The notes: a model not told the origin generated them from the sequence alone. A stretch of DNA of 64,000 bases from an uncultured Clostridia bacterium (GCA_934168355.1 CAKPNI010000002.1:977-64976), one strand, 5' to 3'. Numbered from the stretch's first letter, positions 22,498-58,791 are shown. A program made the numbers and translations.

Positions 22498-24516
22498 ATG
22501 AACAAAACAAAAAAAGTATTAATAACATTAATATTCCTAATAATTTTCATAATATTAGGAAGCAATAAGAGCAATGCCGGAAGTTTATATTTAAACAATC
22601 TAGATTTCAATGCACAAATTAATCAAGATGGAAGTATGAATGTAACTGAAACGTGGGATATATCAGTAAGTGAAACAAACACACTTTTTAAAACATTCAA
22701 AACAGACAAAAGCAAATATTCATCAATAACAAATGTGCAAGTATCAGAAATCACAGGAGGTACAGAAAAAAAATTTTCAAAAGTAAATTCACTAATGTAT
22801 CATGTAACAAAAGACTGTTACTATGGGCTAACAAATTCTGATGGAAATTTTGAAATTGCGTGGGGAGTTGGATTAGATGATAGTAGAGCAACAAAAAAAT
22901 ACAAAATATCATATAAAGTAAATGATGCAGTTGCAAAATATCAAGATTCAGCAGAACTATATTGGCAATTTGTAGGAAGTGATTTTGAAATTGACTGTGA
23001 AAAAATTACAGGAACAATTTTATTACCTCAAAATGCTACCACAAAAGAAGATATAAAAGTATGGGGACATACAGAAAGATTAAATGGCGAAATTTATGCT
23101 ACAGATTTAAATAAAATTGAATTTGAAGTAAATGATTTTATATCTGGAAGGTATATCGAAGTAAGAACATTATTTCCTACATCAATGATATATTCATCTA
23201 ATAGAACATATTCAAAAAATCGAATAGATGATGTTATATCAGAGGAAACTGTTTGGGCAAATGAAGCAAATGCAAGAAGACAAAAAGCAGAAGGAATAAA
23301 AAAAGTAGCAACGACAATATTTATGATTTCGATTGTAATTGTAGACTTTTTTCTTTTGAAAAAAACTATGGAAGTAAGAAAGGAAGCAGCTTCAAAAGAA
23401 AAAATAAAACCTACCCAAGAGCTAGAATATTTTAGAGAACTACCAAGAGAAAATGCCACACCAGCACAATCTATATATGTTTATAATGAAAAATTAGATT
23501 CAGTTTCAACAAAACAAATGGGAAATATATTTTCTGCAACATTATTAGATTTATGTTTGAAAAAATACATAGAATTTGTGGAAAATCCAAATGATAAGAA
23601 AAACATAATTATTAAAATATTAATAAGGACAGCAGATGCAAGTTTAGAAGAAACAGAAAAAACAATACATACATATATACTTAGAGCATCAAAAGGAAGT
23701 GAAGAAGTAACAATTAAGGAAATGGAAAAATACATGAAAGAACATGCATCAGGCTTAATGAAATTAAAAAGCAGTATTGAAAATTCATGTGTAAAAGAAC
23801 TTGAAAATAAGGAATTATATGATGGAGAGGCAGCAAAAGAAAAGGATGATTATAATGCAAGTTCAATTTTTGATTTTGTAATGGTTTTAGTAATATGTTT
23901 TATATTGGTAGGAGTATCTCCATTTTTATTAGCATATATAAATTTAAAAATATTGCTAATAGGAATAGCAAGTCTATTAATATTATTTGCTTTTAGAGGA
24001 TTTACGTGGAAAAATTATGCTAAAAAAATAAATGTATATACACAAAAAGGAATAGACGAAAAACAGATGTGGAGAGGACTAAAAAAATATATGGAAGATT
24101 TCTCTATGTTAGATAAAAGAGAAATTCCAGAAATTGCAATATGGGAACATTTTTTAGTATATGCAACAGCATTTGGAATAGCTGATAAAGTAATAAAACA
24201 ATTAAAAGCAGTTTATAGAGAACTTGGAAGAAGTTTGGATTTTGATGATTCATCTTATGGATATATGTATTTTATGACAAACAACAATTTCTCATCAAGT
24301 TTCACAAACTCAATAAGTTCAGCATTTACATCAGCATATGCATCAAATTACTCATCTTCATACTCTTCAGGCTCAGGAGGAGGCGGCGGCTTCTCTGGTG
24401 GCGGAGGAGGAGGCCGGTGGCCGGAGGTGGCGGCGGCGGTCGATAATTTTTCTGATTTGGGACGGTTCTTTTTTGCGAAAGAACCGTTTCCTTTTGCAAA
24501 AAAAGAAAAGAGGTAA
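22498..24516 (+). CDS. DUF2207-like membrane protein with C-terminal Gly run (3' end uncertain: 24446 if CGG 24415 and 24422 are +1 sites)
   Basis: Signal/TM segment, an extracellular domain, TM segments, then a SSSYSSGSGGGGGFSGGGGGG tail, an architecture typical of DUF2207. The standard frame reads on through an intergenic repeat element. Confidence 0.6.
   Translation: MNKTKKVLITLIFLIIFIILGSNKSNAGSLYLNNLDFNAQINQDGSMNVTETWDISVSETNTLFKTFKTDKSKYSSITNVQVSEITGGTEKKFSKVNSLMYHVTKDCYYGLTNSDGNFEIAWGVGLDDSRATKKYKISYKVNDAVAKYQDSAELYWQFVGSDFEIDCEKITGTILLPQNATTKEDIKVWGHTERLNGEIYATDLNKIEFEVNDFISGRYIEVRTLFPTSMIYSSNRTYSKNRIDDVISEETVWANEANARRQKAEGIKKVATTIFMISIVIVDFFLLKKTMEVRKEAASKEKIKPTQELEYFRELPRENATPAQSIYVYNEKLDSVSTKQMGNIFSATLLDLCLKKYIEFVENPNDKKNIIIKILIRTADASLEETEKTIHTYILRASKGSEEVTIKEMEKYMKEHASGLMKLKSSIENSCVKELENKELYDGEAAKEKDDYNASSIFDFVMVLVICFILVGVSPFLLAYINLKILLIGIASLLILFAFRGFTWKNYAKKINVYTQKGIDEKQMWRGLKKYMEDFSMLDKREIPEIAIWEHFLVYATAFGIADKVIKQLKAVYRELGRSLDFDDSSYGYMYFMTNNNFSSSFTNSISSAFTSAYASNYSSSYSSGSGGGGGFSGGGGGGRWPEVAAAVDNFSDLGRFFFAKEPFPFAKKEKR
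24449..24505. repeat. intergenic palindromic element copy R1 (right arm decayed)
   Basis: tttctgatttgggacggttcttttttgcgaaagaaccgtttcc, between DUF2207 and MYG1. Confidence 0.8.
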
Positions 24517-24519
24517 AAA

Positions 24520-25440
24520 ATGAATATAAAAATAACAAAAAATATAAAAGAAGCAAATTGTGTAACACATGCGGGAACATTTCATGCTGACGAAATATTT
24601 GCAACATTAATATTATCAAAAATAATGCCAGAGATCACTTTAATTAGATTGCCAGAATTTAGAGAGCAAGAAAAATCAGAGGCAAATCCAAATGTAATGG
24701 TATATGACATAGGGGGCAAAGAATATGACCATCATCAACTAGGTGGAAATGGAGCAAGAGAAAATGGTGTAAAATATGCTGCATGTGGTTTGATTTGGAA
24801 AGCTTTTGGAAGAAAACTTTTGAAAAAATATGATGTAAAAGAAATAGATTATACTTTTGATTATATTGATAGAAATTTAATTCAATTTATAGATGCAAAT
24901 GATAATGGTCAACTTCCAAAATTACAAACAGACTATAGAAATGTACATTTATCACATGTAGTTTCGTTATTTAACCCGAAATGGGATGAAGAAGTAGATA
25001 GTGATGAAAACTTTATGAAAGCTTTAAGTGTATGCGAAATTATATTTAATGAATTTTTACATGATGCATTTTCTAAAATGAAGGCAAAGGATTTAGTGGA
25101 TAAAGCCATAGAAAATTCCGAAAATGGAATAATGGTGTTAGATACTTTTGCACCTTGGAAAGAGTTTTTGTTAAATTCTAAAAATGAAAAAGCAAAAAAT
25201 ATTAATTTTGCCGTATTTCCATCTTCCAGAGGAGGATATAATGTATATGCTGTTCCACTTGAGTTTGGAAGCTTTGAAAATAGAAAAAGTTTGCCTGTTA
25301 AATGGAGAGGATTGAGAGATAAAGATTTGCAAGAAGTAACAGGTGTTGAAACTGCTAGATTTTGCCATAATGCAGGATTTATTTGTAGTGCAGATAGTAA
25401 AGATGGAGCTTTGGAGTTGGCAAATATTGCAAATGAATAA
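24520..25440 (+). CDS. MYG1/UPF0160-family metal-dependent hydrolase
   Basis: THAGTFHADEIFATLIL ... YDHHQ motifs. Confidence 0.8.
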   Translation: MNIKITKNIKEANCVTHAGTFHADEIFATLILSKIMPEITLIRLPEFREQEKSEANPNVMVYDIGGKEYDHHQLGGNGARENGVKYAACGLIWKAFGRKLLKKYDVKEIDYTFDYIDRNLIQFIDANDNGQLPKLQTDYRNVHLSHVVSLFNPKWDEEVDSDENFMKALSVCEIIFNEFLHDAFSKMKAKDLVDKAIENSENGIMVLDTFAPWKEFLLNSKNEKAKNINFAVFPSSRGGYNVYAVPLEFGSFENRKSLPVKWRGLRDKDLQEVTGVETARFCHNAGFICSADSKDGALELANIANE

Positions 25441-25441
25441 T

Positions 25442-25494
25442 TTTCTAATTTGGGACGGTTCCTTTTTGAAAAAGGAACCGTCCCAAATTAGAAA
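25442..25494. repeat. intergenic palindromic element copy R2 (perfect 26-bp stem)
   Basis: tttctaatttgggacggttccttttt g aaaaaggaaccgtcccaaattagaaa. Confidence 0.9.
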
Positions 25495-25500
25495 TAATGA

Positions 25501-25529
25501 TTGACATAAAAAGTAAATGGTGATAAACT
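25501..25529 (+). promoter_or_regulatory. sigma-A-type promoter (TTGACA-17-TAAACT)
   Basis: TTGACA at 25501-25506, a 17-nt spacer, and TAAACT at 25524-25529. Confidence 0.45.
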
Positions 25530-25583
25530 AATGATATTGTAACCGCAAAAATAACACTACTTTGTAAGTAGGGAGGGCTAATT

Positions 25584-26756
25584 ATGGCAAAACGGAAAAT
25601 GAAAAAAGCTTACTGCATTGAGGAAGAAAAGAAAGAAAATGCAAAAGTAAAAAAAGGAGGCAAACCACAAACTAAAACTTTGACAGACCAAAATGGATCA
25701 ATCCTTTTTGGTGGTACAATAAATCCAGAGCTTAGAGCTGCAATTGCGAGAGAAGAAAAGAAGATAAGACCAAATATTCAGGATGTTGAAAAAATGGTTT
25801 TAAAGTCTATAGTAGGCCAGGATAGACAGGTAAGAGAAATTATTACAACAATATACAAATCTATTGAATTTAATAATCTAAAATCAAATATTTTAATTAT
25901 TGGAGGAAGTGGAACAGGAAAAACAGAAACTGTAAAACAGATTGTTAAAATATTGGGAATACCATATACAATTGAAGATGCTACTAAATATACCAAAGAG
26001 GGATATTATGGTATGGATACTACTGATATGGTTTTCAATTTGGTTTACAATGCAAATTACAATATTCAAAAAGCTCAAAAAGGAATTATTGTAATAGACG
26101 AAATTGACAAGAAAACTGGATATATGCAAAACGATATATCTGGAGTGGAGGTTTTAAAAAGTTTGTTAAAGATAATTGAAGGAACTAAAATAAAGATGGA
26201 AGTACCAAAGAAAGGCTCTTATTTTGGTTCAGTAGTGGACTTTGATACTAAAAACATAACATTTATTTTGATGGGGGCTTTTTCAGGAATTAAAGAGATC
26301 CGCGATAATAGATTAAATCTTAAAACAATAGGATTTCATATGGGAGAAGATGACGAAAAAGAGATGGATTTTCAAGATGGCTACACAAAACAGGATTTGG
26401 TTGAGTATGGAATGCCGGAAGAATTTGTTGGTAGAATTGATAATATAACTGTGATGAACGAATTAACAGAAGAAAATTTATCTCAGATTTTAAGAAAATC
26501 AAAATTATCTGTTTTTAAAGAATATCAAAAAGAATTGACTAAAAGAGGAGTAACGTTAAAATTTGATACGAAACTTTTTGATGCTATTGCAAAAAAATCT
26601 ATGTCTTTAAATACAGGAGCAAGGGAATTAACCAATACAGTTAATTATATTTTTTTTAAAATTATATTTGATGTTTTGGCTAATCCAGGAAAATATCATC
26701 AATGTGTATTGGATTTAGACATTGTAAATGATAATAGAAAATATAAATTGTCATAA
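25584..26756 (+). CDS. ClpX-like AAA+ unfoldase paralogue lacking the N-terminal zinc-binding domain
   Basis: ILIIGGSGTGKTETV (Walker A), IIVIDEIDK (Walker B), an IGF tripeptide (KTIGFHMG), and YGMPEEFVGRID and TGARELT sensor motifs all align with ClpX. There is no C4 zinc ribbon and no adjacent clpP. Codon 4 is an in-frame CGG. Confidence 0.75.
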   Translation: MAKRKMKKAYCIEEEKKENAKVKKGGKPQTKTLTDQNGSILFGGTINPELRAAIAREEKKIRPNIQDVEKMVLKSIVGQDRQVREIITTIYKSIEFNNLKSNILIIGGSGTGKTETVKQIVKILGIPYTIEDATKYTKEGYYGMDTTDMVFNLVYNANYNIQKAQKGIIVIDEIDKKTGYMQNDISGVEVLKSLLKIIEGTKIKMEVPKKGSYFGSVVDFDTKNITFILMGAFSGIKEIRDNRLNLKTIGFHMGEDDEKEMDFQDGYTKQDLVEYGMPEEFVGRIDNITVMNELTEENLSQILRKSKLSVFKEYQKELTKRGVTLKFDTKLFDAIAKKSMSLNTGARELTNTVNYIFFKIIFDVLANPGKYHQCVLDLDIVNDNRKYKLS

Positions 26757-26837
26757 TGGTTGGAAGCAAAAGAGTTCTCAAACTGTTTCTTAGTTTGAGA
26801 GCTTTTTTGAAGTATAAAATAATTATTAAATAGTTGT

Positions 26838-26866
26838 TTGACACTATTTACATAATATGGTAAAAT
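26838..26866 (+). promoter_or_regulatory. sigma-A-type promoter with extended -10 (TTGACA-17-TAAAAT)
   Basis: TTGACA at 26838-26843 and TGGTAAAAT ending at 26866. Confidence 0.5.
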
Positions 26867-26936
26867 ACGGGTATGGCAAAATTCATAAGTGTAGAGATAA
26901 ATATTGCCGAAAAAACAAAACAAAGGAGAAACAATT

Positions 26937-28529: not shown

Positions 28530-28544
28530 TATCTCTACACACAC

Positions 28545-28578
28545 CCCGCTACAGTTTTTATAGTAGCGGGTTTTTTTT
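28545..28578 (+). terminator. Rho-independent terminator
   Basis: cccgctac / gtagcggg stem followed by T8. Confidence 0.8.
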
Positions 28579-28645
28579 CGTAAAAAGAAACGGTTCACAT
28601 GGAAAATTTCGCAAAAGGAAACGGTCCCAATGCGAAAAAAATCTC
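28579..28645. repeat. intergenic element copy R3 (two direct half-units)
   Basis: aaaagaaacggttcacatgg ... aaaggaaacggtcccaatgcgaaaaaa. Confidence 0.7.
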
Positions 28646-28674
28646 TTGACTTCCTAAAAACATATATATATAAT
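28646..28674 (+). promoter_or_regulatory. sigma-A-type promoter (TTGACT-17-TATAAT)
   Basis: TTGACT at 28646-28651 and TATAAT at 28669-28674. Confidence 0.5.
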
Positions 28675-28703
28675 AAGGTTAAAATTTAAACAAAAGGAAG
28701 GTA

Positions 28704-29597: not shown

Positions 29598-29610
29598 AAT
29601 ACAATATACA

Positions 29611-29645
29611 AGATGGCTATGTTTTTATAGCCATCTATTTTTTGG
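29611..29645 (+). terminator. Rho-independent terminator
   Basis: agatggctat / atagccatct stem followed by a T-run. Confidence 0.75.
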
Positions 29646-29736
29646 ATAAAAAATTAATTTGAAACGATTAAATTCAAAATAAAATTGCCGAAGAGTAATT
29701 TGAAATGGAAAAAAATGTAAAAATATATTAAAAGTA

Positions 29737-29765
29737 TTGAAATACCACAATAAAAATGGTATAAT
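29737..29765 (+). promoter_or_regulatory. sigma-A-type promoter with extended -10 (TTGAAA-17-TATAAT)
   Basis: TTGAAA at 29737-29742 and TGGTATAAT ending at 29765. Confidence 0.5.
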
Positions 29766-29885
29766 GTAAAACGTCTAATAACATTGAAATAGTCTGTCTT
29801 TTTAGACTAGTTCACATAAAAGAAATGTATTATAGTTTCATATAGGTAAGGGGGATTTTTTTAGATTAAGAAAGGAAAAAGGAGT

Positions 29886-31025: not shown

Positions 31026-31040
31026 ATAAGTGTGAACAGC

Positions 31041-31072
31041 AAAAAGCACAGGAATAACACCTGTGCTTTTTG
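31041..31072 (+). terminator. Rho-independent terminator
   Basis: gcacagg / cctgtgc stem followed by TTTTT. Confidence 0.65.
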
Positions 31073-31112
31073 TGTACACTATATTGCCAAGAAGCAAAAA
31101 ATAATATATAAT

Positions 31113-31173
31113 GACACAAAAAGAACCGGTCCAAATGAGTCATGGCACAAAAAGAACCGGTCCCGATGTGCCA
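31113..31173. repeat. intergenic element copy R4 (two direct half-units)
   Basis: cacaaaaagaaccggtccaaatg and cacaaaaagaaccggtcccgatg. Confidence 0.8.
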
Positions 31174-31187
31174 GAAAGGAAAATCAA

Positions 31188-34269: not shown

Positions 34270-34320
34270 TTTCTGATTGGGGGCGGTTTTTTGCGAAAAG
34301 AACCGTCCCCAATCAGAAAT
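34269..34320. repeat. intergenic palindromic element copy R5
   Basis: atttctgattgggggcggttttttgcgaaaagaaccgtccccaatcagaaat. Confidence 0.85.
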
Positions 34321-36130: not shown

Positions 36131-36677
36131 TTTGAGAGAAGGAATGATTGAATGTGGAAGTTTCAAGGTTTTTCACTATAAGAAAATAGATTCTACTCAA
36201 AAGGAAATATGGAGAAGAGTGAAAAGTGGAACTATAGAAGATAGAACCATGATTATAGCAGATATTCAAACTGCAGGAATAGGAACTCATGGTAGAGTTT
36301 GGCATACAGACGAAGAAAATAATATTGCATTTTCGGTTTATTTTGATTTTATCGGTAAAAATCGCAGGATAGATGAATTCGAGGGATTAACTGTTGAAAT
36401 AGCTAAAAAGATTGTTGATGTTTTTGAGAATTTGTATGGGATTAGGTTGGATATTAAGTTTCCAAATGATATTTATTGCAATGGAAAAAAATTAGGCGGA
36501 ATTTTGACTGAAACTAAGGTTCAAGATGGTTTGGTTAGATGTGTTGTTATTGGGATTGGAATTAATACTAATCAGGTTCAGTTTACAGATGAGATTGATG
36601 GGATTGCGACTTCGATTAGACGAGAATTTGGGATTGAGGTTGATAATGAGAAAGTAATTTTTAGTATTTATCATTAA
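36117..36677 (+). CDS. birA: biotin--protein ligase catalytic domain (short BirA-like, 186 aa)
   Basis: IIADIQTAGIGTHGRVWHT ... KFPNDIYCNGKKLGGILTE matches the BPL catalytic core. It has no N-terminal HTH and apparently no C-terminal domain, and it ends directly at a repeat element. Confidence 0.65.
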   Translation: MVDVNLREGMIECGSFKVFHYKKIDSTQKEIWRRVKSGTIEDRTMIIADIQTAGIGTHGRVWHTDEENNIAFSVYFDFIGKNRRIDEFEGLTVEIAKKIVDVFENLYGIRLDIKFPNDIYCNGKKLGGILTETKVQDGLVRCVVIGIGINTNQVQFTDEIDGIATSIRREFGIEVDNEKVIFSIYH

Positions 36678-36763
36678 GATCGTTTCTTTTTCCATTGGGA
36701 CCGTTTCCTTTTGCGAAAAGATCGTTTCTTTTTCCACTGGGACCGTTTCCTTTCGCGAAAAAA
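36678..36763. repeat. intergenic element copy R6 (two tandem ~42-nt units, inverted orientation)
   Basis: gatcgtttctttttccattgggaccgtttccttttgcgaaaa repeated with 3 differences, between birA-like and fabD. Confidence 0.85.
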
Positions 36764-37653: not shown

Positions 37654-37706
37654 TTTTGAAATGGGGACGGTTCCTTTTTCAAAAAAGAACCGTCCCCATT
37701 TCAAAA
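37654..37706. repeat. intergenic palindromic element copy R7
   Basis: ttttgaaatggggacggttcctttttcaaaaaagaaccgtccccatttcaaaa, between fabD and fabG. Confidence 0.9.
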
Positions 37707-37721
37707 AAGGAGGAGAAGATT

Positions 37722-38453: not shown

Positions 38454-38518
38454 CCAAAAAGTCAATATTCGTAGAAAACGAATACTGACTTGATGGTTTG
38501 AAATGATGAATTGATGAT

Positions 38519-38824
38519 TTAATGATTTTTTTTGGTTCTGTATATGTAAATTGTTGAAGAACCAATCATTTCTTTCCTCCAAAATGTGTATGACCAACCA
38601 AGTGATTTGAGAATACTTGCTGCTGAGGTTTCAAACATTATTGGAGAAAAAGTGGGATTATATTTTATCCCAATATAATCGGGAACACTGGTCATTGGGA
38701 AAAGATAAAAATTAATTTGGTTTAATATATCAATCCGTAAACGGTAATCTCTTAGACCAGTACTATCTTTTAAAGTGTCATCCCGTAATTTGTAAATGTT
38801 TTGAATCATCTCTTCATAGTTCAT
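38519..38824 (-). CDS. hypothetical protein (101 aa), antisense to the fab cluster
   Basis: Good RBS (AAGGAGGTATGCATA-ATG) and no recognised family. It occupies the fabG-fabF gap where acpP often lies. Contains two in-frame CGG codons. Confidence 0.5.
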   Translation of the reverse strand: MNYEEMIQNIYKLRDDTLKDSTGLRDYRLRIDILNQINFYLFPMTSVPDYIGIKYNPTFSPIMFETSAASILKSLGWSYTFWRKEMIGSSTIYIYRTKKNH

Positions 38825-38956
38825 TATGCATACCTCCTTGAGTATATATTATGTAAATATAATATCACAAAATGATTGAAATTTCAATACTTGAAGAGGA
38901 AAAAAATGGAAAATGGTGTATTTTTTTAGAATTTAGTAAATGAAAGGAATTTTCAA

Positions 38957-40210: not shown

Positions 40211-40657
40211 ATGGAATACGAAAAAATAATACAGTTAATAAACGATTTTGGAAATTCTAAATTAAATAATCTTAAATTAGATTTTCCAGATGGCACTAAG
40301 ATTGACATGAGTAAAAATGAGGAAAAGGTTAAGATTATTGAAACAAGTACCGATTTGAATAAAGAACTTCAAAATGAGGTTGAAGTTACGGAGAATGCAA
40401 AGGAAAAAAATAATTTAAATAGTGGAAATATTATTACATCACCTATGGTTGGAACATTTTATTTAAAGCCATCACCAAATGCTGAACCTTATGTTAAAGT
40501 TGGGCAAAGAGTAAAAAAAGGAGATGTGCTTTGTATAATTGAGGCTATGAAACTTATGAATGAAATTGAGTCTGAATATGATGGTGTTGTAGAGGAAATT
40601 TTGGTTAAGGATAGCGAAAGTGTGGAATATGGGAAGCCGTTGTTTAGAATTTCGTGA
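40211..40657 (+). CDS. accB: biotin carboxyl carrier protein of acetyl-CoA carboxylase
   Basis: [13 protein letters not shown] biotinylation motif. Confidence 0.95.
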
Positions 40658-40748
40658 AAAGAAACGGTCCCAGTGGAAAAAGAAACGGTCATTTCGCGAA
40701 AAGAAACGGTCCCAATGAAAAAAGAAACGGTCCTTTTGCGAAAAAAGA
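40656..40748. repeat. intergenic element copy R8 (four direct half-units)
   Basis: gaaaagaaacggtc occurs four times at ~21-23-nt spacing, between accB and fabZ. Confidence 0.85.
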
Positions 40749-41184: not shown

Positions 41185-41197
41185 AAAATATAAGAAA

Positions 41198-41226
41198 ACC
41201 CCTCACAAATAAGTTGTGAGGGGGGA
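41198..41226. terminator. bidirectional terminator hairpin between fabZ and the antisense ORF
   Basis: cccctcacaa / ttgtgagggg stem. Confidence 0.6.
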
Positions 41227-41231
41227 TGAAA

Positions 41232-41450
41232 TTATTCCCAATCGTTGACAGAAAAGAATTGCATGGCATCAGGTCCTATTTTTAGTGCAAGTTTAATTGC
41301 ATCAAATTCTGAGATCTGACGTTCTTTAACAGTAACAACAAGCCAGCCGATGAATTCATCTGGAACTTCACATCTTTGAAGAACCTGGCCTATTTCCTCT
41401 GTTAAATTTTGCAATTTTTCCTTCCGTGTTAAATCGGTAACTTCAATCAT
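41232..41450 (-). CDS. hypothetical protein (72 aa), antisense to the fab/acc cluster
   Basis: Good RBS (AAGGAGGAATCATT-ATG) and no recognised family. Contains one in-frame CGG. Confidence 0.5.
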   Translation of the reverse strand: MIEVTDLTRKEKLQNLTEEIGQVLQRCEVPDEFIGWLVVTVKERQISEFDAIKLALKIGPDAMQFFSVNDWE

Positions 41451-41545
41451 AATGATTCCTCCTTAGAATTTATAATGTTCTAAGTATAACATATATTGAA
41501 TAATATGTAAAGTTTTTATGAAATTTTTTAGAAAAAGGTGAATAT

Positions 41546-42886: not shown

Positions 42887-42900
42887 AAATTTGCCCAGTT

Positions 42901-42960
42901 GTTCATTTTGAACCGGTTCTTTTGTGAACATGTTCGAAAAAGAACCGGTCCAAAATGAAC
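42901..42960. repeat. intergenic palindromic element copy R9 (GAACATGTTC-centre subfamily)
   Basis: gttcattttgaaccggttcttttgtgaacatgttcgaaaaagaaccggtccaaaatgaac, between accC and accD. Confidence 0.9.
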
Positions 42961-42980
42961 AAAAACAGAAAGGAGAAAAA

Positions 42981-43815
42981 ATGCTAGTAGATAAAATCAA
43001 AAAAAGAGAACCAACTGCAAAAAGAAACATAAATAAGGTAGATATTCAAGTAGGAAAATGGGTAAAATGCACAAAATGTAAAGAAATCCTATATAAAGAA
43101 GATGTAAGAAACAATTTAAACATATGCCCTGTATGTGGAGCATATTTTAGAATGCACATAAATAGAAGACTAGAAAACATAATAGATAAAGGGACATATA
43201 AAAGGTTTGAATTAAACATAGATAATGTAAATCCATTAGGATTAGAAGATTATCAATCAAAACTTGAAAGGCTAAGACAAAAGACAGACTTAGAAGAAGC
43301 CGTAAGTTGTGGTACACGGAAAGATCGATGGAAAAAATGTTGTTATATGTATAATGGATAGTGGATTTTTAATGGGAAGTATGGGAACAGTTGTTGGTGA
43401 AAAAATAACTTATGCTATTGAAAAAGCAATTGAACTTAAATATCCACTTATAATATTTACAGTGTCTGGTGGAGCAAGAATGCAAGAGGGGATAATGTCT
43501 CTTATGCAAATGGCCAAAACGACTGCTGCAATATCTAGGTTAAATGAAGCAGGAGGACTTTATATTTCTGTTTTAACAGACCCAACTTATGGCGGTGTTA
43601 CAGCTTCTTTTGCTAGCATTGCTGATATTGTTCTAAGTGAACCGGGGGCAATGATTGGTTTTGCTGGTCAAAGAGTTATTGAGCAGACTATTGGAGAGAG
43701 CCTACCTGAGGGGTTTCAGACTGCAGAGTTTTTGTTGGAACATGGTTTTGTGGATAAGATTGTGGAGAGAAGAGAATTGAAACATGTTTTGGAAAAACTA
43801 ATTGAGCTAAATTAG
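42981..43815 (+). CDS. accD: acetyl-CoA carboxylase carboxyltransferase beta; frame interrupted (+1) at CGG 43317-43319
   Basis: Zn ribbon [10 protein letters not shown]...[10 protein letters not shown] lies in the first frame. [19 protein letters not shown] ... SGGARMQEG lies in the +1 frame (ORF 43309..43815). Skipping C43317 gives ..[19 protein letters not shown]. Confidence 0.9.
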
Positions 43816-43821
43816 TGATTT

Positions 43822-43897
43822 TTTTCGCATTAGGACCGTTTCTTTTCGCGAAAAGAAACGGTCCCAATGGAAAAAGAAACGGTCCCAATACGAAAAA
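43822..43897. repeat. intergenic element copy R10 (palindrome plus extra half-unit)
   Basis: cgcattaggaccgtttcttttcgcgaaaagaaacggtcccaatgg followed by aaaaagaaacggtcccaatacg, between accD and accA. Confidence 0.85.
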
Positions 43898-45566: not shown

Positions 45567-45656
<90 letters not shown>

Positions 45657-52434: not shown

Positions 52435-52447
52435 GGAGGAAATCAAA

Positions 52448-53449: not shown

Positions 53450-53454
53450 CTCAC

Positions 53455-53485
53455 TGGCACAAAAAGAACCGGTCCCGATGGGTCA
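53455..53485. repeat. intergenic element copy R11 (single half-unit)
   Basis: tggcacaaaaagaaccggtcccgatgggtca, nearly identical to the second unit of R4, between pta and ackA. Confidence 0.75.
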
Positions 53486-53501
53486 AGAAAAGAGGTGTAA
53501 T

Positions 53502-54743
53502 ATGAAAATACTAGTTATAAATGCAGGAAGTTCGTCACTAAAGTATCAGGTAATAGATATGGAAACAGACGAAATGCTAGTAAAAGGAAATTTTGAAAGA
53601 ATAGGCCAAGCAGGCTCATTCTTAACACATAAGGTAAATGGGGTAAAACGTAGATTTGAGCATGAAGTAAAAAATCATGAAGAAGCTATACAATTTATAA
53701 TATCAAGAATATTAAATAGACACTATGGAGTTATGAAAAGTCTTGATGAATTAGCAGGAATAGGACACAGAGTAGTACATGGAGGAGAAAAATTTAAGAC
53801 TCCTGTTATAATTACAGATGAAGTTATAGAAGAAATAGAAAAATGTTCAGATTTAGCCCCACTTCATAATCCAAATGCAATAGCAGGAATAAAGGCATGC
53901 CAAAAAGTAGTACCAAATATGAAAATGGTTGCAGTATTTGATACAGCATTTCATCAAACAATACCAAAGGAAAAATATATTTATCCAATTCCATATGAAT
54001 ACTACGAAAAATATGGTATAAGAAAATATGGATTTCATGGAATTTCACATGAATATGTTGCAAATAGAGTTGCAAAGCTTATGAACAAAGACATAAAAGA
54101 CTTAAAAATAATAAGTTGTCATTTGGGGCAAGGTGCAAGTTTATGTGCTATAAAGAACGGAAAGTCACAAGAAACAACAATGGGATTAACACCACTTGGC
54201 GGAATACCAATGGGTTCGAGAAGTGGAGATTTAGACCCATCAGTTATAACATATTTAATAAAAAAATCAGAAAAACCAACAGTTGGAGTAAGAGAACTTG
54301 CAAAAACTGACCATAAAGAATTAACTGCTGAAGAAGTAGAAGAAATGCTTAATAAAAAATCAGGAGTTTATGGAATATCAAGAATATCTTTAGATTTTAG
54401 AGATGTAGAATTAGATAGTTTATCAGGAGGACATCATGCAAAACTTGCATTAGATGTGTTTGATTATAGAGTGGCTCAGGAAATTGCAAAATGTGCAGTT
54501 GCAATTGGCGGAGTAGATGTAATAACATTTGAAGCAGGTGTTGGGGAAAAAGGCCCACTTGATAGAAAACATATCTGTGAGTACCTAGGAATTTTAGGAG
54601 TAGAATTAGATAGAGAGGCAAACGAAGAAACAAAAGGCGAAGAAAGAGAAATATCTACACCATCTTCTAAGGTTAAGGTTTGGGTTGTTCCTACAAATGA
54701 AGAATTGATGATTGCAAGAGAAACTTATGAATTGGTAAAATAA
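53502..54743 (+). CDS. ackA: acetate kinase (copy 1)
   Basis: MKILVINAGSSSLKYQ, FDTAFHQT, RKYGFHGISH and VPTNEELMIARET motifs. Confidence 0.95.
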   Translation: MKILVINAGSSSLKYQVIDMETDEMLVKGNFERIGQAGSFLTHKVNGVKRRFEHEVKNHEEAIQFIISRILNRHYGVMKSLDELAGIGHRVVHGGEKFKTPVIITDEVIEEIEKCSDLAPLHNPNAIAGIKACQKVVPNMKMVAVFDTAFHQTIPKEKYIYPIPYEYYEKYGIRKYGFHGISHEYVANRVAKLMNKDIKDLKIISCHLGQGASLCAIKNGKSQETTMGLTPLGGIPMGSRSGDLDPSVITYLIKKSEKPTVGVRELAKTDHKELTAEEVEEMLNKKSGVYGISRISLDFRDVELDSLSGGHHAKLALDVFDYRVAQEIAKCAVAIGGVDVITFEAGVGEKGPLDRKHICEYLGILGVELDREANEETKGEEREISTPSSKVKVWVVPTNEELMIARETYELVK

Positions 54744-54745
54744 AA

Positions 54746-54809
54746 TTGTTCGTTTGGAACTGGTTCTTTTAAGAACATGTTCTTAAAAGAACCGGTCCCA
54801 AATGAACAA
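54746..54809. repeat. intergenic palindromic element copy R12 (GAACATGTTC-centre subfamily)
   Basis: ttgttcgtttggaactggttcttttaagaacatgttcttaaaagaaccggtcccaaatgaacaa, between the two ackA genes. Confidence 0.85.
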
Positions 54810-54831
54810 AAAAAGAAAGGAAGATTTAAAA

Positions 54832-56022
54832 ATGAAAATATTAGTATTAAACTGTGGTAGTTCATCACTAAAGTATCAATTAATTAACATGGAAACAGAT
54901 GAGGTATTAGCATCTGGAAAATATGAAAGAATAGGAGAAAAAGAAGCATTTATAACACACAAAGCATGTGGCAAAAAAGTAAGAATAGACCATGTTGCAA
55001 TGGACCATACAGAAGCAATAGATTTTACATTAAAACAATTAACAAATCCAGAATACAAAGTAATAGATAGCTTAGACGAAGTAAGTGCTATTGGGCACAG
55101 ACTAGTTCATGGGGGAGAAAAAATTGCAGAATCAGTTGTAATTGATGAAAATGTTATAGAGGTATTAAAAGAATGTACAGATTTAGCACCACTACACAAC
55201 CCAGCAGGAATAATGGGAATAGAAGCTTGCCAAAAAGTAATGCCGGGAAAACCAATGGTAGGAGTATTTGATACTGCATTCCATCAAACAATGCCAAAAG
55301 AACATTATATTTATCCAATACCATATGAATTTTACAAAAAATATGGAATAAGAAAATATGGATTCCACGGAACATCACATATGTACGTTTCAAATAGATT
55401 AGCTGAAATTGAACATAAAGACATAAAAGACCTAAAAATAGTAACATGCCATCTAGGTCAAGGTTCAAGTATATGTGCAGTTGATGGTGGAAAATCAATA
55501 GATACATCAATGGGATTAACACCACTTGGAGGAATTCCAATGGTTACAAGAAGTGGAGATTTAGACCCATCTGTTGTTACATTTTTAATGAAAAAAGAAA
55601 ACTTATCAGCTGATGAAGTTGAAAATGTTTTAAATAAACAATCAGGAGTTCAAGGAATTTCGGGATTAGCACCAGACTTTAGAGAAATAGAAGCAGCATC
55701 ATATGGCGAAAGCGAAAGAGCTAAAATTGCAATTGATAGCTTTACATATGCTATTGCTGGTTATATTGCAAAATATGCTGTTGCAATGAGAGGAATTGAC
55801 TATATAGTATTTACTGGTGGTGTTGGTGAAAACCAAATTAATATCCGTAAATGGATTTGCGAACAACTTGAATTTATGGGTGTTTTAATCGATACAGATG
55901 CTAATAATGTTAGGTCTGAAGAAAAATTGGTTTCTAAACCAGAGTCTAAAGTTAAAGTTTTCGTTATTCCTACAAATGAGGAATTGATGATTGCTAAGGA
56001 AACTGAGAGACTCGTTAAATAA
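54832..56022 (+). CDS. ackA: acetate kinase (copy 2, tandem paralogue)
   Basis: MKILVLNCGSSSLKYQ, FDTAFHQT, RKYGFHGTSH and IPTNEELMIAKET motifs. Confidence 0.95.
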   Translation: MKILVLNCGSSSLKYQLINMETDEVLASGKYERIGEKEAFITHKACGKKVRIDHVAMDHTEAIDFTLKQLTNPEYKVIDSLDEVSAIGHRLVHGGEKIAESVVIDENVIEVLKECTDLAPLHNPAGIMGIEACQKVMPGKPMVGVFDTAFHQTMPKEHYIYPIPYEFYKKYGIRKYGFHGTSHMYVSNRLAEIEHKDIKDLKIVTCHLGQGSSICAVDGGKSIDTSMGLTPLGGIPMVTRSGDLDPSVVTFLMKKENLSADEVENVLNKQSGVQGISGLAPDFREIEAASYGESERAKIAIDSFTYAIAGYIAKYAVAMRGIDYIVFTGGVGENQINIRKWICEQLEFMGVLIDTDANNVRSEEKLVSKPESKVKVFVIPTNEELMIAKETERLVK

Positions 56023-56045
56023 AACATATAATAAAGAGGAGAAAA

Positions 56046-56792
56046 ATGAATTTGCTAGATAATGTGGATAAAAAGCTAAAAGAATATGTTGAAAATGAGG
56101 TTTTTCCTCTTTATGAAATGAATGGAGAAGCACATGGAGTAAAACATATAGAAGCAGTAATTGAAAGAAGTTTTGAGATAATTGAAGAATTTGAAGAAAT
56201 AAATGATTCAAAACAAAAGATTAATTATAATATGTCATATGTAATTGCAGCTTACCATGATATTGGAGAACATGTAGATAGAAAAAAACATCATATTATA
56301 TCAGGAAAAATAATGTTTGAAGATAAAAAATTGGATGAATTTTTTAGCCTAGAAGAAAAAACAATAATGAAAGAAGCAATTGAAGACCATAGAGCATCAA
56401 ACAAACACTTACCTCGTTCAATATATGGACGCATAGTATTGACAGCAGATAGAAATAATAATTTAATTGATTTCTTCAAAAGAAGAGTGCAATATTGTCT
56501 AGAACATAATCCGGAATTTTCCTTGGAAGAAGTCCAAGAAGAGATATGGAAATCTTCTAAGGAAAAATTTGGAAGAGAAGGCTATGCCAAAAATAAACCG
56601 GGATATATGTCAAGCAAAAAATTAGCAAAATATTTCCAAAGCTTAGAAAGAGTATTAGCTGATAAGGATGTTTTCTTTGAAAATGTAAAAAAAGTGTATA
56701 AGCAGTGGGAAAACAGATATAAAGAAGATGAAAAAGACGATGAAATATTAAAAGAAATTGAAATAGATAAAAATATATTAAGACAAAATTAA
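56046..56792 (+). CDS. HD-domain phosphohydrolase
   Basis: HGVKHIEAV ... AAYHDIGEHVDRKKHH (H..HD motif). Confidence 0.7.
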   Translation: MNLLDNVDKKLKEYVENEVFPLYEMNGEAHGVKHIEAVIERSFEIIEEFEEINDSKQKINYNMSYVIAAYHDIGEHVDRKKHHIISGKIMFEDKKLDEFFSLEEKTIMKEAIEDHRASNKHLPRSIYGRIVLTADRNNNLIDFFKRRVQYCLEHNPEFSLEEVQEEIWKSSKEKFGREGYAKNKPGYMSSKKLAKYFQSLERVLADKDVFFENVKKVYKQWENRYKEDEKDDEILKEIEIDKNILRQN

Positions 56793-56804
56793 GGAGAAAA
56801 GCTT

Positions 56805-57749
56805 ATGAACAATATATTAGGCAACGCAAAAGTTGCGTATAATCAAAGCGTTAATATAAAATATGATGGCTTAAGACTCTTAAAAGAAATAAATAATAAT
56901 ATATCTAAAAACAAAAATATAATTATAAAAGCAAATGAAAAAGATATTATAGAAAAAAACGGATTTAAGATTAATTTTGATATTATATCTTCTATAGTAA
57001 ACGAAAGCAAAGATGAAAAGTTATATAAAAGTAGAATATTAAATCGAAAAGAAAACCAAATAACAGAATATGATAGCCTAGGTATAATTGATGTTTTTTT
57101 TGATGGAAACACTTATATATTAATTGAAATGGCAATAAAAGCTATTATATCACATAATGCAATAATTTTAATTTCGCAACTAGAATATATGAAAAATACC
57201 AATATGACAATTTGTGGTATAATAGCAGGAGTTTTGAAAAATCAAAATATAAATGAAAATATTATCCAATTGAAATATGATTTTGATTTAACAAAATATT
57301 GTTCGAATGATTTAATAAAAAAAGCATTTGTTATAGGAAATACAGATTTACATAAAACTCTAAAAAGAATATCAAAAATAGATACAAGATATATTGGGTA
57401 TAATGACTGTGATGTTTATATAGAAGATGCAAATAATATTGCAAATTTAGAAAAGATGGTAAATGATAATAAAAACATATTATTTAAAATATATGTGAAT
57501 AAATCTATAGAAATGGCGAACAAGGATGATATTATTTATGTAAACAATATAGATGAAGCAACAGAAAAAATAAAATATGATAGTTGCAATTATTGTTGCA
57601 TAATTTTTAGTAAAAATAAAGAAAATTGTATTAAATTTGCCGAAACAAACAAAGCAAAATATATAGTTATAAATAATACAATGGATTTTAGTAGAACTAA
57701 CAATGTTGAAATCAAAGAATTTTATTGCAAAAAATACATAAAAAAATAA
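56805..57749 (+). CDS. degenerate glutamate-5-semialdehyde dehydrogenase (ProA)-like protein
   Basis: By-eye similarity to ProA blocks (IIKANEKDI; LGIIDVFFDGNTYILIEMAIKAIISHNAIIL; NDCDVYIED; VNNIDEATEKIKYDS). It is about 100 aa shorter, and I cannot find the catalytic Cys block. Confidence 0.35.
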   Translation: MNNILGNAKVAYNQSVNIKYDGLRLLKEINNNISKNKNIIIKANEKDIIEKNGFKINFDIISSIVNESKDEKLYKSRILNRKENQITEYDSLGIIDVFFDGNTYILIEMAIKAIISHNAIILISQLEYMKNTNMTICGIIAGVLKNQNINENIIQLKYDFDLTKYCSNDLIKKAFVIGNTDLHKTLKRISKIDTRYIGYNDCDVYIEDANNIANLEKMVNDNKNILFKIYVNKSIEMANKDDIIYVNNIDEATEKIKYDSCNYCCIIFSKNKENCIKFAETNKAKYIVINNTMDFSRTNNVEIKEFYCKKYIKK

Positions 57750-57771
57750 AAAAGAAAGAAGGAACTAAAAA

Positions 57772-58728
57772 ATGAATTCATATAAGGAAATCAAAGAAGT
57801 TTTAAACAATATACCAAATGATAGAGCGATAATAATTGCAGGACACGAAAATGCGGATATGGATTCAATTGGTTCATCACTTGCATTAGCATATTTTTTA
57901 AATAAAATAGGAAAAAATGATATATCTGTGTTAATAGATAAAAAAGATAAGTATAAAATACAATGGTTTAATAATAACAAATTTATTGTACAAGATATTT
58001 CAAGAAAAGATTACGTTTTTATAATGGTTGACTTAAATAGAAAACAACGATTAGGAATTTATGAAAATTATTTTGACAATGCTAGATTAACAATAAATAT
58101 AGATCATCATGAAAATAACAAAAAAGAGTCAAATTATATTATATCAGATGAAAATATAAGCTCAACAGCAGAAATGATTTTTAACCTAATTAATGAATTT
58201 GATACGAAAATTGATGAAAATATTGCATCATTATTATATGCAGGAATTCTTACAGATACAGCAGGTTTCTCGCATAGGCTAACACCAAAGACATTTGAGA
58301 CTATGTCAAAACTTTTAGAATGTGGAATTAATTATAAATATATTACAAAAAAAGTATTTCTTGAACGTACCATGAAAGAAGCAAAAGCATTATCAAAAAT
58401 GTTAAGTGAAATCAATTATGATGTGTTCCATTATATAATTATAAATAAAAATGATGAAATTTTTAGTAGTCTAGAATATTCAATGCTGTTTAAAAAGATG
58501 GTTCCTATCTTAAAAAATATAGAAGATATAAAGGTTTTGGGAATATTTTTAATAGATAATGATAAAGTATTTGGAGAATTTAAGGCCAATATAGATATTG
58601 ATATGTCAAAATTAGCAGAAAGATTTGGTGGAGGTGGACATAAAGACTCTGCCGGATTTGAGAGTGAGCTTGATATTGCGGAAATACTTAAAATTTCAAA
58701 AGAATATATTGAAGAAAGTAGCAAATGA
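57772..58728 (+). CDS. DHH/DHHA1 phosphoesterase (NrnA-like)
   Basis: IIIAGHENADMDSIGS, NIDHHENN and GGGHKDSAGF motifs. Confidence 0.85.
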   Translation: MNSYKEIKEVLNNIPNDRAIIIAGHENADMDSIGSSLALAYFLNKIGKNDISVLIDKKDKYKIQWFNNNKFIVQDISRKDYVFIMVDLNRKQRLGIYENYFDNARLTINIDHHENNKKESNYIISDENISSTAEMIFNLINEFDTKIDENIASLLYAGILTDTAGFSHRLTPKTFETMSKLLECGINYKYITKKVFLERTMKEAKALSKMLSEINYDVFHYIIINKNDEIFSSLEYSMLFKKMVPILKNIEDIKVLGIFLIDNDKVFGEFKANIDIDMSKLAERFGGGGHKDSAGFESELDIAEILKISKEYIEESSK

Positions 58729-58733
58729 GCTAC

Positions 58734-58791
58734 TTTTTTTGTATTGGGGACGGTTCTTTTCGCGAAAAGAACCGTCCCCAATACAAAAAAA
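58734..58791. repeat. intergenic palindromic element copy R13 (perfect 29-bp stem)
   Basis: tttttttgtattggggacggttcttttcg cgaaaagaaccgtccccaatacaaaaaaa. Confidence 0.9.

What the first reader, a model, noticed from the sequence alone, without database searches (positions are those of the whole stretch)
24449..58791. Family of palindromic intergenic elements (core GGGACGGTTC ... GAACCGTCCC) at 13 loci, mostly just upstream of the next RBS
Thirteen loci carry a related element (R1-R13 in the features). All lie between same-strand genes, and none lies in a credible coding region. Nine end within about 35 nt of the next start codon. These include spacers inside operons: birA-fabD, fabD-fabG, accB-fabZ, accC-accD, accD-accA, pta-ackA and ackA-ackA. 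The forms range from single half-units (R11), to direct arrays of half-units (R3, R4, R8), to tandem ~42-nt units (R6), to long perfect hairpins (R2 with 26 bp, R13 with 29 bp). There are three core variants: GAACCGTCCC, GAAACGGTCCC and GAACCGGTCC. The hairpins have a T-run on the 5' side and an A-run on the 3' side of the coding strand. That is the opposite polarity to an intrinsic terminator, so they are unlikely to be simple terminators of these operons. Candidate roles are REP/MITE-like mobile palindromes, mRNA processing or stability hairpins that set differential expression within operons, or protein- or RNA-binding sites. When translated, they create the spurious KRNGP-type N-terminal extensions seen in the ORF track.
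Basis: seen in the sequence. Interest (0 to 1): 0.7.

Follow-up and report, generated by a model that had tools for sequence, protein, structure and literature searches.

The report
REP-like repeats with RAYT transposase partner
The 13 GC-rich palindromic spacers are a real family of REP/REPIN-type selfish repeats, and the same core sequence flanks a REP-associated tyrosine transposase (RAYT) gene in many other bacteria; this is a known kind of element, seen here in an uncultured low-GC gut Clostridia lineage.

Summary
About 31 copies of a ~21-nt unit sit at 13 intergenic loci. The unit core is GGGACGGTTC, GGGACCGTTTC or GGGACCGGTTC. There are 8 exact core matches against 0.27 expected by chance.

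Eight loci form very stable hairpins (dG -19 to -40 kcal/mol). Five loci are direct arrays of units with no significant structure. The unit, not the hairpin, is therefore the common denominator.

The elements are absent from the same fab/acc spacers in relatives at about 83% amino-acid identity. They are present at orthologous spacers in sister species UMGS1925. Their architecture differs between strains that are 97-98% identical: unit number, loop inversion and core variant all change.

The decisive result comes from other genomes with the same core. There the units flank, in "> gene <" orientation, a Y1/HUH transposase. This protein matches NCBIfam "REP-associated tyrosine transposase", and its best solved relative is E. 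coli TnpA-REP (4ER8). The arrangement holds in 25 of 70 genome loci and 26 of 58 metagenome loci, and is never reversed.

The family is therefore a REP/REPIN (TIRtron-like) system carrying the published GGGGWSAS-type tag. No RAYT lies in this window, and the RAYT of this species was not identified. Effects on mRNA were not tested. Verdict: new member of a known kind, moderate interest.

The parts
24449..24503 (.). R1: two '>' units (GGGACGGTTC, then a degenerate GAACCGTTTCC unit). Forms a 14-bp hairpin. Lies in the 3' tail of the DUF2207 ORF.
   Evidence: (dG -19.3, z -3.1)
25441..25495 (.). R2: perfect 25-bp hairpin, core variant A. Starts directly after the MYG1 stop codon and lies upstream of a promoter-like site at 25501.
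   Evidence: (dG -38.4, z -10.2)
28570..28640 (+). R3: two direct '<' units, core variant B (one degenerate). Sits between a terminator and a promoter-like site at 28646. No significant structure.
   Evidence: (z -0.85)
31112..31173 (+). R4: two direct 31-nt '<' units, core variant C. The core lies in the loop of small flanking stems. Immediately downstream of a promoter-like site at 31084-31112.
   Evidence: (D10)
34270..34319 (.). R5: 25-bp hairpin, core variant A, with a degenerate left arm. Starts directly after the ahpC stop codon.
   Evidence: dG -39.2, z -10.1
36673..36762 (-). R6: four direct '>' 21-nt units (two of core variant B, two degenerate). Overlaps the birA stop codon. Nine other strains have an R7-type hairpin at this site instead.
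   Evidence: D8; z -0.13
37654..37707 (.). R7: hairpin, core variant A, in the fabD-fabG spacer. Identical in all 11 strains compared.
   Evidence: (dG -33.8, z -7.0)
40650..40747 (+). R8: four direct '<' 21-nt units, core variant B, in the accB-fabZ spacer. Other strains have 1, 3 or 4 units here. It is the inverted copy of R6, 3.9 kb away.
   Evidence: I1; z +1.1
42899..42962 (.). R9: hairpin, core variant C (degenerate), in the accC-accD spacer. The loop is inverted in strains L200, L205 and L206. One arm position shows a compensatory change.
   Evidence: dG -34.4, z -7.7
43820..43897 (.). R10: hairpin of core variant B plus one extra '<' unit, in the accD-accA spacer. Other strains carry a variant A hairpin here.
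   Evidence: dG -30, z -4.3
53455..53485 (+). R11: single '<' unit, core variant C, in the pta-ackA spacer.
   Evidence: (D10)
54746..54809 (.). R12: hairpin, core variant C, in the ackA-ackA spacer.
   Evidence: D20, I19; dG -39, z -10.2
58733..58791 (.). R13: perfect 27-bp hairpin, core variant A. Starts 4 nt after the stop codon of the DHH-family gene.
   Evidence: dG -40.4, z -11.6

Best explanation
The 13 loci are copies of a REP/REPIN-type family of non-autonomous repeats. The building block is a ~21-nt unit with the core G-GGGAC(C)GG/GT-TTC. Units occur singly, in head-to-tail arrays, or as inverted doublets that form long hairpins (the REPIN-like form).

By inference from related genomes, the units are the recognition sites of a REP-associated tyrosine transposase (RAYT, also called TIRYT). 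This is a single-copy Y1/HUH enzyme encoded elsewhere in the genome, with its own gene flanked by the same units in inverted orientation. By analogy with E. coli TnpA-REP (established knowledge, cited from memory), the enzyme would bind and cut the units in single-stranded DNA and disperse them in trans.

Copies survive only where they do no harm. In this gene-dense genome that means between a stop codon and the next Shine-Dalgarno sequence. After insertion they are remodelled quickly by slippage, template switching or recombination between arms, and replacement by other copies.

Shown here: the family is real, it is lineage-specific, it is hypervariable between strains, and its core is linked to RAYT genes in other genomes. 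Inferred: a RAYT exists in this genome, the mobilisation chemistry, and any effect of the transcribed hairpins on mRNA.
For: **Family is real.** Core counts far exceed chance, and a unit profile finds about 31 units only at the 13 loci.

**Not a conserved regulatory site.**
- Most fab/acc spacers are 10-35 nt in most relatives at ~83% amino-acid identity.
- Some relatives hold different repeats of their own in the same spacers.

**Persistent but fast-changing.**
- Sister species UMGS1925 (88-96% amino-acid identity) has family members at the same spacers, in different forms.
- Strains with only 2-3% divergence in flanking genes differ in unit number (1, 3 or 4), core variant, array versus hairpin, and loop orientation.

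**Structure is not obligatory.** Five of 13 loci have no significant fold.

**Link to a RAYT.**
- ORFs flanked on both sides by the core are Y1_Tnp (PF01797) proteins.
- They match NCBIfam NF047646 'REP-associated tyrosine transposase'.
- A profile of 26 homologues hits E. coli TnpA-REP, 4ER8, at E = 2e-7. The HUH histidines and the RYIxxNP tyrosine are invariant.
- 25 of 70 genome loci and 26 of 58 metagenome loci of this RAYT clade have the core '>' upstream and '<' downstream. None has the reverse arrangement.
- UBA3678 (29% GC, carrying a closely related form of the variant-A repeat) has 4 direct units, then the RAYT gene, then 6 inverted units.
- Variants A and C flank RAYTs in low-GC gut Clostridia from the same cohorts as the window strain.

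**Control.** A control palindrome gave 113 stretches, of which 109 held only the seeded palindrome, with 5 extra arms in 844 kb. The real core gave 180 extra arms in 843 kb and showed flank preferences (G at -1, T at +1).

**Published precedent.**
- Di Nocera et al. 2013 describe RAYT-like genes flanked by repeated inverted repeats sharing a GGGGWSAS motif, named TIRtrons/TIRYTs (PMC3733652).
- Bertels et al. 2017 report Group 1 RAYTs in Clostridia (PMC5581495).
Against: - No Y1 transposase is encoded in the 64-kb window.
- The RAYT of this species was not found. Five look-ups of homologues returned other low-GC gut Clostridia whose repeats differ in outer stem and loop.
- Core variant B (GGGACCGTTTC) was not seen next to any RAYT in 163 loci.
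- No filled-versus-empty site pair and no target-site duplication was found, so transposition itself is not demonstrated.
- The strain differences could arise from slippage, template switching and gene conversion alone.
- Occupancy of the same spacers in all strains and in the sister species is also what selection for a function would give.
Confidence: 0.8

Rival explanations
1. The elements are primarily evolved cis-acting RNA elements. On this view they are intercistronic hairpins that set mRNA processing, 3'-end protection or differential expression within the fab/acc and pta-ack operons, and their repetitiveness is secondary.
For: - Eight loci fold at -19 to -40 kcal/mol with z-scores down to -11.6.
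- R6-R12 lie inside operons with no strong promoter or terminator in the spacers.
- They start at the upstream stop codon and leave the Shine-Dalgarno sequence free.
- The same spacers are occupied in all strains and in the sister species.
- One arm position in R9 shows a compensatory change.
Against: - Five of 13 loci, including operon-internal R6, R8 and R11, have no structure.
- One and the same spacer holds a hairpin in some strains and a direct array in others.
- Most relatives at ~83% amino-acid identity run the same operons with 10-35 nt spacers.
- No Rfam family matches.
- The same core flanks RAYT genes in unrelated phyla.
- A secondary effect on mRNA remains possible and untested.
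Confidence: 0.12
2. The units are binding sites for a host DNA-binding protein, such as a global regulator or a nucleoid protein. The 21-nt spacing would place successive sites on one face of the DNA helix.
For: - There is a conserved 12-nt core with a 21-nt period in direct arrays.
- Some copies lie next to promoter-like sites: R2, R3, R4 and R13.
Against: - Position relative to promoters is inconsistent: upstream, downstream or deep inside operons.
- Copy number at one site varies between near-identical strains.
- The spacers are empty in most relatives.
- The only protein-coding gene specifically linked to the core is a RAYT.
Confidence: 0.04
3. They are MITEs derived from a DDE-type insertion sequence or transposon, with terminal inverted repeats cut and pasted by a DDE transposase.
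For: They have a palindromic form, and multi-site ends of the [>>> ... <<<] type resemble Tn7/Mu-type transposon ends.
Against: - No target-site duplication is visible at copies with identical sequence in three spacers.
- The outer ends vary while the inner core is constant.
- Single half-units and head-to-tail arrays are common.
- No DDE transposase is associated with the units. The associated enzyme is a Y1/HUH protein.
Confidence: 0.03
4. They are ordinary intrinsic terminators or chance hairpins.
For: - A control palindrome of the same composition also occurs about 113 times in the genome collection, so single hits elsewhere are often chance hairpins.
- R5 weakly fits a terminator pattern.
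Against: - No locus except R5 has a T-run after the stem.
- The sequence family recurs 13 times in 34 kb, with counts far above shuffles.
- Control hits were single-copy in 109 of 113 stretches, whereas the real core is multi-copy.
Confidence: 0.01

Closest known systems
TIRtrons / TIRYT-associated repeats with the GGGGWSAS motif (Di Nocera, De Gregorio and Rocco 2013, PMC3733652)
   Same: - A RAYT-like Y1 transposase gene is flanked by inverted repeats.
- Those repeats are also members of moderately abundant families dispersed in the genome, organised as singles, dimers or clusters.
- The repeat begins with a GGGG(A/T)(C/G) head. Here the head is GGGGACGG, which fits 7 of the 8 GGGGWSAS positions. 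Relatives in this clade carry GGGGACAG or GGGGTCAG.
   Different: - In the text searched, the paper mentions neither Firmicutes nor Clostridia.
- The specific core GGGGACGGTTCT, its 21-nt head-to-tail arrays, and its high density inside operons of a 28% GC genome were not found described in the papers searched.
REP / REPIN-RAYT systems of Proteobacteria (E. coli REP/BIME with TnpA-REP; Pseudomonas REPINs)
   Same: - Short extragenic palindromic units at high copy number.
- Inverted doublets that form hairpins.
- Clusters of units.
- Location after stop codons between same-direction genes.
- A RAYT gene flanked by inverted units that sits at one conserved site in four related species. Copy number per genome was not measured.
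- The RAYT here is homologous to TnpA-REP (4ER8, E = 2e-7) and matches NF047646.
   Different: - There is no GTAG tag.
- The protein has an extra ~100-residue C-terminal region with weak HTH matches.
- Units often stand in direct rather than alternating orientation.
- The core is shared across several phyla, whereas REP sequences are usually lineage-specific.
Group 1 RAYTs (Bertels, Gallie and Rainey 2017, PMC5581495)
   Same: This RAYT group is reported across 21 bacterial classes, including Clostridia, and is associated with only moderately abundant flanking 16-mers.
   Different: Group membership of the proteins found here was not tested. In the passages read, that paper gives no repeat sequence for the Clostridia members.
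IS200/IS605 insertion sequences
   Same: They use a Y1/HUH transposase of Pfam family PF01797, and recognition is based on single-stranded DNA hairpins.
   Different: - The gene here is not multi-copy.
- It scores best with the RAYT model and only E = 1e-4 with the IS200 model.
- What has multiplied is the short flanking unit, not the gene.

Membership tests
REP/REPIN-RAYT (including TIRtron/TIRYT) | Short (20-40 nt) repeated units, largely extragenic, at high density | tested here: met
   About 31 units lie at 13 spacers within 34 kb. Counts are far above shuffles. Many copies occur in sister genomes.
REP/REPIN-RAYT (including TIRtron/TIRYT) | Units paired in inverted orientation that can form a hairpin (REPIN-like doublets), plus clusters of units | tested here: met
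   Eight of 13 loci are inverted doublets with dG from -19 to -40 kcal/mol. Five are direct arrays or single units.
REP/REPIN-RAYT (including TIRtron/TIRYT) | A Y1/HUH tyrosine transposase gene flanked by the same units in inverted orientation | tested here: inconclusive
   Met in other genomes with the identical core: 25 of 70 genome loci and 26 of 58 metagenome loci, with none reversed. This includes low-GC Clostridia. Not found in this window, and not identified for this species.
REP/REPIN-RAYT (including TIRtron/TIRYT) | The transposase is a RAYT rather than an IS200 transposase: RAYT model hit, HUH motif plus catalytic Tyr, and a conserved single genomic site | tested here: met
   - NF047646 is the top hit for 4 of 4 proteins, and one scores above the curated cut-off.
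- The best solved relative is 4ER8, TnpA-REP.
- H60, H62 and Y119 are invariant.
- The gene sits at the same syntenic site in four species.
- Copy number per genome was not tested.
REP/REPIN-RAYT (including TIRtron/TIRYT) | Conserved tag at the foot of the repeat (GTAG in classical REPs; GGGGWSAS in TIRtrons) | tested here: inconclusive
   There is no GTAG tag. The head GGGGACGG fits 7 of 8 GGGGWSAS positions. Clade relatives carry GGGGACAG or GGGGTCAG (PMC3733652).
REP/REPIN-RAYT (including TIRtron/TIRYT) | Mobilisation of the units by the RAYT (binding and cleavage of single-stranded DNA) | not testable with these tools
   Needs biochemistry or population sequencing. No filled-versus-empty site pair was found among 11 strains.
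MITE (DDE-transposon derived) | Terminal inverted repeats bounded by a target-site duplication | tested here: not met
   No duplication appears at three identical copies in different spacers. The outer ends vary between lineages.
Intrinsic terminator | GC-rich stem followed by a U-run on the transcribed strand | tested here: not met
   Only R5 is flagged, and only weakly. The other loci are followed by A-rich sequence.
Any curated RNA family (Rfam 15) | Match at or above the family gathering score | tested here: not met
   There were no hits at gathering thresholds. Below threshold there were only generic miRNA-hairpin matches.

The most novel reading that the evidence does not exclude
One RAYT clade may use an almost invariant 12-nt recognition core (GGGGACGGTTCT and close variants). 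The core appears in multi-copy form in genomes from 24 to 73% GC labelled Bacillota, Bacteroidota, Actinomycetota, Omnitrophota and Planctomycetota; RAYT homologues flanked by it were found mainly in Bacillota and Bacteroidota, plus one Atribacterota contig. In small low-GC gut Clostridia these repeats may have become fixed, fast-evolving components of operon spacers that tune expression of essential genes (fab/acc, pta-ack). If so, the enzyme-repeat pair would be maintained by the host rather than being purely selfish.
Probability: 0.2. Interest if true: 0.55.

Novelty: new member of a known kind. Interest (0 to 1): 0.38.

Why it matters
The work gives a name and a probable enzyme partner to a repeat family that fills operon spacers in a poorly known group of uncultured gut Clostridia.

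- **Annotation.** The repeats create spurious N- and C-terminal ORF extensions. Examples are the DUF2207 tail and the birA end that varies between strains.
- **Assembly and strain typing.** The spacers are hypervariable between near-identical strains, so they matter for both.
- **Biology of REP systems.** REP-RAYT systems have been studied mostly in Proteobacteria. A clade with one conserved core across several phyla, with cultured hosts available (Oribacterium sp. NK2B42, Lachnospiraceae bacterium AC2029, Micropruina glycogenica), gives a tractable system. Only the Oribacterium strain was shown here to carry the RAYT gene as well. It can be used to ask how a RAYT reads its repeat, and whether such repeats affect operon expression.

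Tried and rejected
- **Rfam.** Searches at gathering and permissive thresholds gave nothing real.
- **Literature search by exact sequence.** It returned only unrelated primers. Two keyword searches were uninformative.
- **Mimicry of, or antisense to, conserved rRNA.** No match of the core within 1 mismatch to the E. coli rrn operon in either sense.
- **Phage origin.** Only 1 hit in the viral contigs.
- **Raw hit count as evidence of cross-phylum spread.** Rejected after the control palindrome gave a similar number of stretches, 113. Only multi-copy lineages and the RAYT link are used as evidence.
- **All-against-all clustering of neighbouring ORFs.** It recovered only ubiquitous families: response regulators, histidine kinases and ABC ATPases. 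The RAYT appeared only after selecting ORFs flanked on both sides by units.
- **Known operators.** Comparison from memory with Rex, LexA/Cheo, BirA, CtsR, cre, parS/NBS and Mu or Tn7 end sites gave no convincing match, so these ideas were dropped.
- **Conservation of R7.** It is identical in all strains, but this was rejected as evidence of selection, because local flank divergence is only ~2%.
- **Strain comparison for R1-R5.** Only near-identical strains were found.
- **Search for this species' own RAYT.** Five look-ups (P0044, P0086, P0080, P0023, P0118) and one metagenome scan returned other low-GC gut Clostridia whose repeats differ in outer stem and loop.

Full report
**1. Observation**

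The window has about 28% GC, and almost all genes are on the + strand.
- The exact core GAACCGTCCC occurs 8 times against 0.27 expected. GGACSG occurs 24 times against 3.4 expected. No shuffle reached either count.
- Reading the 13 loci and the repeat finder show a ~21-nt unit with three core variants:
  - A: GGGACGGTTC
  - B: GGGACCGTTTC
  - C: GGGACCGGTTC
- A profile built from the units recovers about 31 units. All lie in the 13 loci, and nothing credible lies elsewhere in the 64 kb.
- Pfam confirms the gene labels: BPL/birA, fabD, fabG, fabF, accB, fabZ, accC, accD, accA, pta and two ackA. No transposase is encoded in the window.

**2. Anatomy**

- Eight loci (R1, R2, R5, R7, R9, R10, R12, R13) are inverted doublets. 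They fold at -19 to -40 kcal/mol with z-scores from -3 to -11.6.
- Five loci (R3, R4, R6, R8, R11) are single units or head-to-tail arrays. They fold no better than shuffled sequence.
- The shared feature is therefore the unit, not a structure.
- Ten of 13 elements begin between -8 and +12 nt from the upstream stop codon. Nine end 13-33 nt before the next ATG, which leaves the Shine-Dalgarno sequence free.
- R1 supplies the last ~22 codons of the DUF2207 ORF.
- Only R5 weakly resembles a terminator. Strong promoter-like sites lie after R2 and R3 and just before R4. None lies in the fab/acc spacers.

**3. Relatives and strains**

- The organism is an uncultured gut Clostridia lineage. The best AccC relatives in the species collection reach 83% identity.
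- The fab/acc loci of those relatives carry essentially no copies of the core. In most relatives most of those spacers are 10-35 nt.
- A few relatives have different repeats of their own in the same spacers.
- UMGS1925 is a sister species at 88-96% amino-acid identity, and it is syntenic. Its accC-accD and accD-accA spacers also hold family members, but in other forms.
- Ten further contigs of the species were recovered through the exact AccB sequence. Local coding divergence from the window is 2-3%. Every one of the six element-bearing spacers between ahpC and accA (seven including R5) is occupied in every strain, but the architecture differs:
  - accB-fabZ holds 1, 3 or 4 units.
  - birA-fabD holds a four-unit array in the window and L203, and an R7-type hairpin in the other nine strains.
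  - accD-accA switches between variant B and variant A.
  - The 22-nt loop of R9 is inverted in three strains, and one arm position changed on both sides.
- No empty site and no target-site duplication was seen.

**4. The core in other genomes, with a control**

It gave 1 stretch in viral contigs.
- A control palindrome with two adjacent bases swapped gave 113 stretches. The raw number is therefore not special, and isolated hits in odd phyla are best read as chance hairpins.
- The contrast lies in copy number. 109 of 113 control stretches held only the seeded palindrome, with 5 extra arms in 844 kb. The real core is multi-copy in 46 of 119 stretches, with 180 extra arms in 843 kb.
- The real core also shows G at position -1 (110 of 144) and T at position +1 (106 of 144). 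The control shows no such preference.
- Multi-copy lineages include:
  - low-GC Clostridia (UMGS1576, UMGS1925, UBA3678)
  - Oribacterium
  - several Lachnospiraceae
  - Bacteroidales and Prevotellaceae
  - Omnitrophota
  - Micropruina and Propionicimonas at 70% GC
- Loops and outer stems are lineage-specific, and only G-GGGACGGTTC-T/C is shared.

**5. The partner enzyme**

- Clustering all neighbouring ORFs gave only ubiquitous families.
- Selecting ORFs flanked on both sides by units gave two Y1_Tnp (PF01797) proteins, from Oribacterium NK2B42 and Lachnospiraceae RUG12082. They are 38% identical to each other.
- All four proteins tested have NCBIfam NF047646, 'REP-associated tyrosine transposase', as their top hit. 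One scores above the curated cut-off. The IS200 model scores only weakly.
- A profile of 26 homologues hits E. coli TnpA-REP (4ER8) at E = 2e-7. The HUH histidines and the RYIxxNP tyrosine are invariant.
- Eighty genome loci and 80 metagenome loci encoding relatives were fetched. Among loci with enough flank, 25 of 70 and 26 of 58 have the core family '>' upstream and '<' downstream of the gene. None has the reverse arrangement.
- Most of the remaining loci that could be examined are flanked by inverted repeats beginning GGGGAC or GGGGTC.
- UBA3678 (29% GC, carrying a closely related form of the variant-A repeat) shows four direct units, then the RAYT gene, then six inverted units.
- Low-GC gut Clostridia from the same cohorts as the window strain carry RAYTs flanked by variant C (L409, L418) or variant A (L412, L415, L498). 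In four species the gene sits at one syntenic site, between a hydrogenase-type operon and yunB-sipL-spoVG.

**6. Interpretation**

This is the signature of a REP/REPIN-RAYT system. The mechanism is taken by analogy from E. coli TnpA-REP: binding and cutting of REP hairpins in single-stranded DNA, as described in the RAYT literature (Ton-Hoang 2012 and Messing 2012, cited from my own knowledge; the Messing paper, PMC3479197, is listed). It is an inference here, not a result.

The pattern of occupation fits insertion wherever it is tolerated in a gene-dense genome, followed by rapid remodelling. That pattern is: elements start at the stop codon, leave the Shine-Dalgarno sequence free, are absent in most more distant relatives, and vary between strains.

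Because most copies are transcribed within operons, the 25-27-bp perfect hairpins could well affect mRNA decay or processing. Nothing here tests that, and the array alleles at the same sites argue that such an effect is not the reason the family exists.

**7. Comparison with the literature**

- Di Nocera et al. 2013 (PMC3733652) describe RAYT-like genes ('TIRYTs') flanked by inverted repeats that share a GGGGWSAS motif. Those repeats form moderately abundant families of singles, dimers and clusters.
- Bertels et al. 2017 (PMC5581495) report Group 1 RAYTs in Clostridia, with modestly abundant flanking 16-mers.
- The present family, with head GGGGACGG, fits this known kind.
- New at the level of detail:
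  - the specific core and its spread over very different GC contents
  - the 21-nt direct arrays
  - the density inside essential operons of an uncultured low-GC gut lineage
  - the strain-level hypervariability

**8. Limits**

- The RAYT of this species was not identified.
- Variant B was never seen next to a RAYT.
- Transposition itself is not shown.
- Genome-wide copy number for this species is unknown.
- RNA effects are untested.

**Verdict:** It is a new member of a known kind and of moderate interest.

Noticed in passing
window 42981-43815: accD is split into two overlapping ORFs in different frames (42981-43361 and 43309-43815, 53-nt overlap). All other strains also have it called as two genes. 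In relatives the two parts are in frame. This could be a fixed frameshift, a programmed frameshift or a split gene.
   Followed up: partly
window 41185-41545: A 345-nt insertion lies between fabZ and accC. It carries a minus-strand 72-aa ORF and a minus-strand terminator (41223-41199). It is present in the window and four strains. Six strains lack it and have a 16-nt spacer instead.
   Followed up: partly
window 38454-38956: The 503-nt fabG-fabF spacer holds a minus-strand ORF (38519-38824, about 100 aa, no Pfam hit recorded) with a terminator-like hairpin at 38491-38459 (-). This looks like a small antisense gene inside the fab operon.
   Followed up: no
window 22498-24516 (tail 24449-24516): The DUF2207 ORF reads through element R1, so its last ~22 codons are repeat-derived. 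The birA ORF end likewise differs between strains (186 versus 225 aa) because of the element.
   Followed up: partly
window about 45610-45645: A (CA)n dinucleotide microsatellite of roughly 17 repeats lies in the spacer upstream of the RCC1-repeat gene.
   Followed up: no
window 16526-19793: Five consecutive paralogous small genes share a conserved N-terminus (MENASKALI.AG...) followed by a hydrophobic stretch. This may be a pilin- or pseudopilin-like family.
   Followed up: no
window 36673-36762 and 40650-40747: Arrays R6 and R8 are 86% complementary over 94 nt. They bracket fabD-fabG-fabF-accB as a 3.9-kb inverted-repeat pair, the same [>>>> ... <<<<] layout that surrounds RAYT genes elsewhere. 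No inversion of the segment was seen in the 10 strains compared.
   Followed up: partly
L005, L015, L019, L020 (relatives' fab/acc loci): Related low-GC gut Clostridia carry their own, different interspersed repeats in the same operon spacers. L005 has GAGACAAGAGGGACAGGTCT..., which also contains a GGGAC head.
   Followed up: partly
L409, L412, L415, L500: RAYT homologues of four low-GC Clostridia species lie at one conserved syntenic site, between a NuoF-like/[FeFe]-hydrogenase operon and yunB-sipL-spoVG. This suggests long vertical inheritance.
   Followed up: partly
window 53502-56022: Two tandem ackA paralogues (about 75-80% nucleotide identity over long stretches) are separated by element R12.
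   Followed up: no
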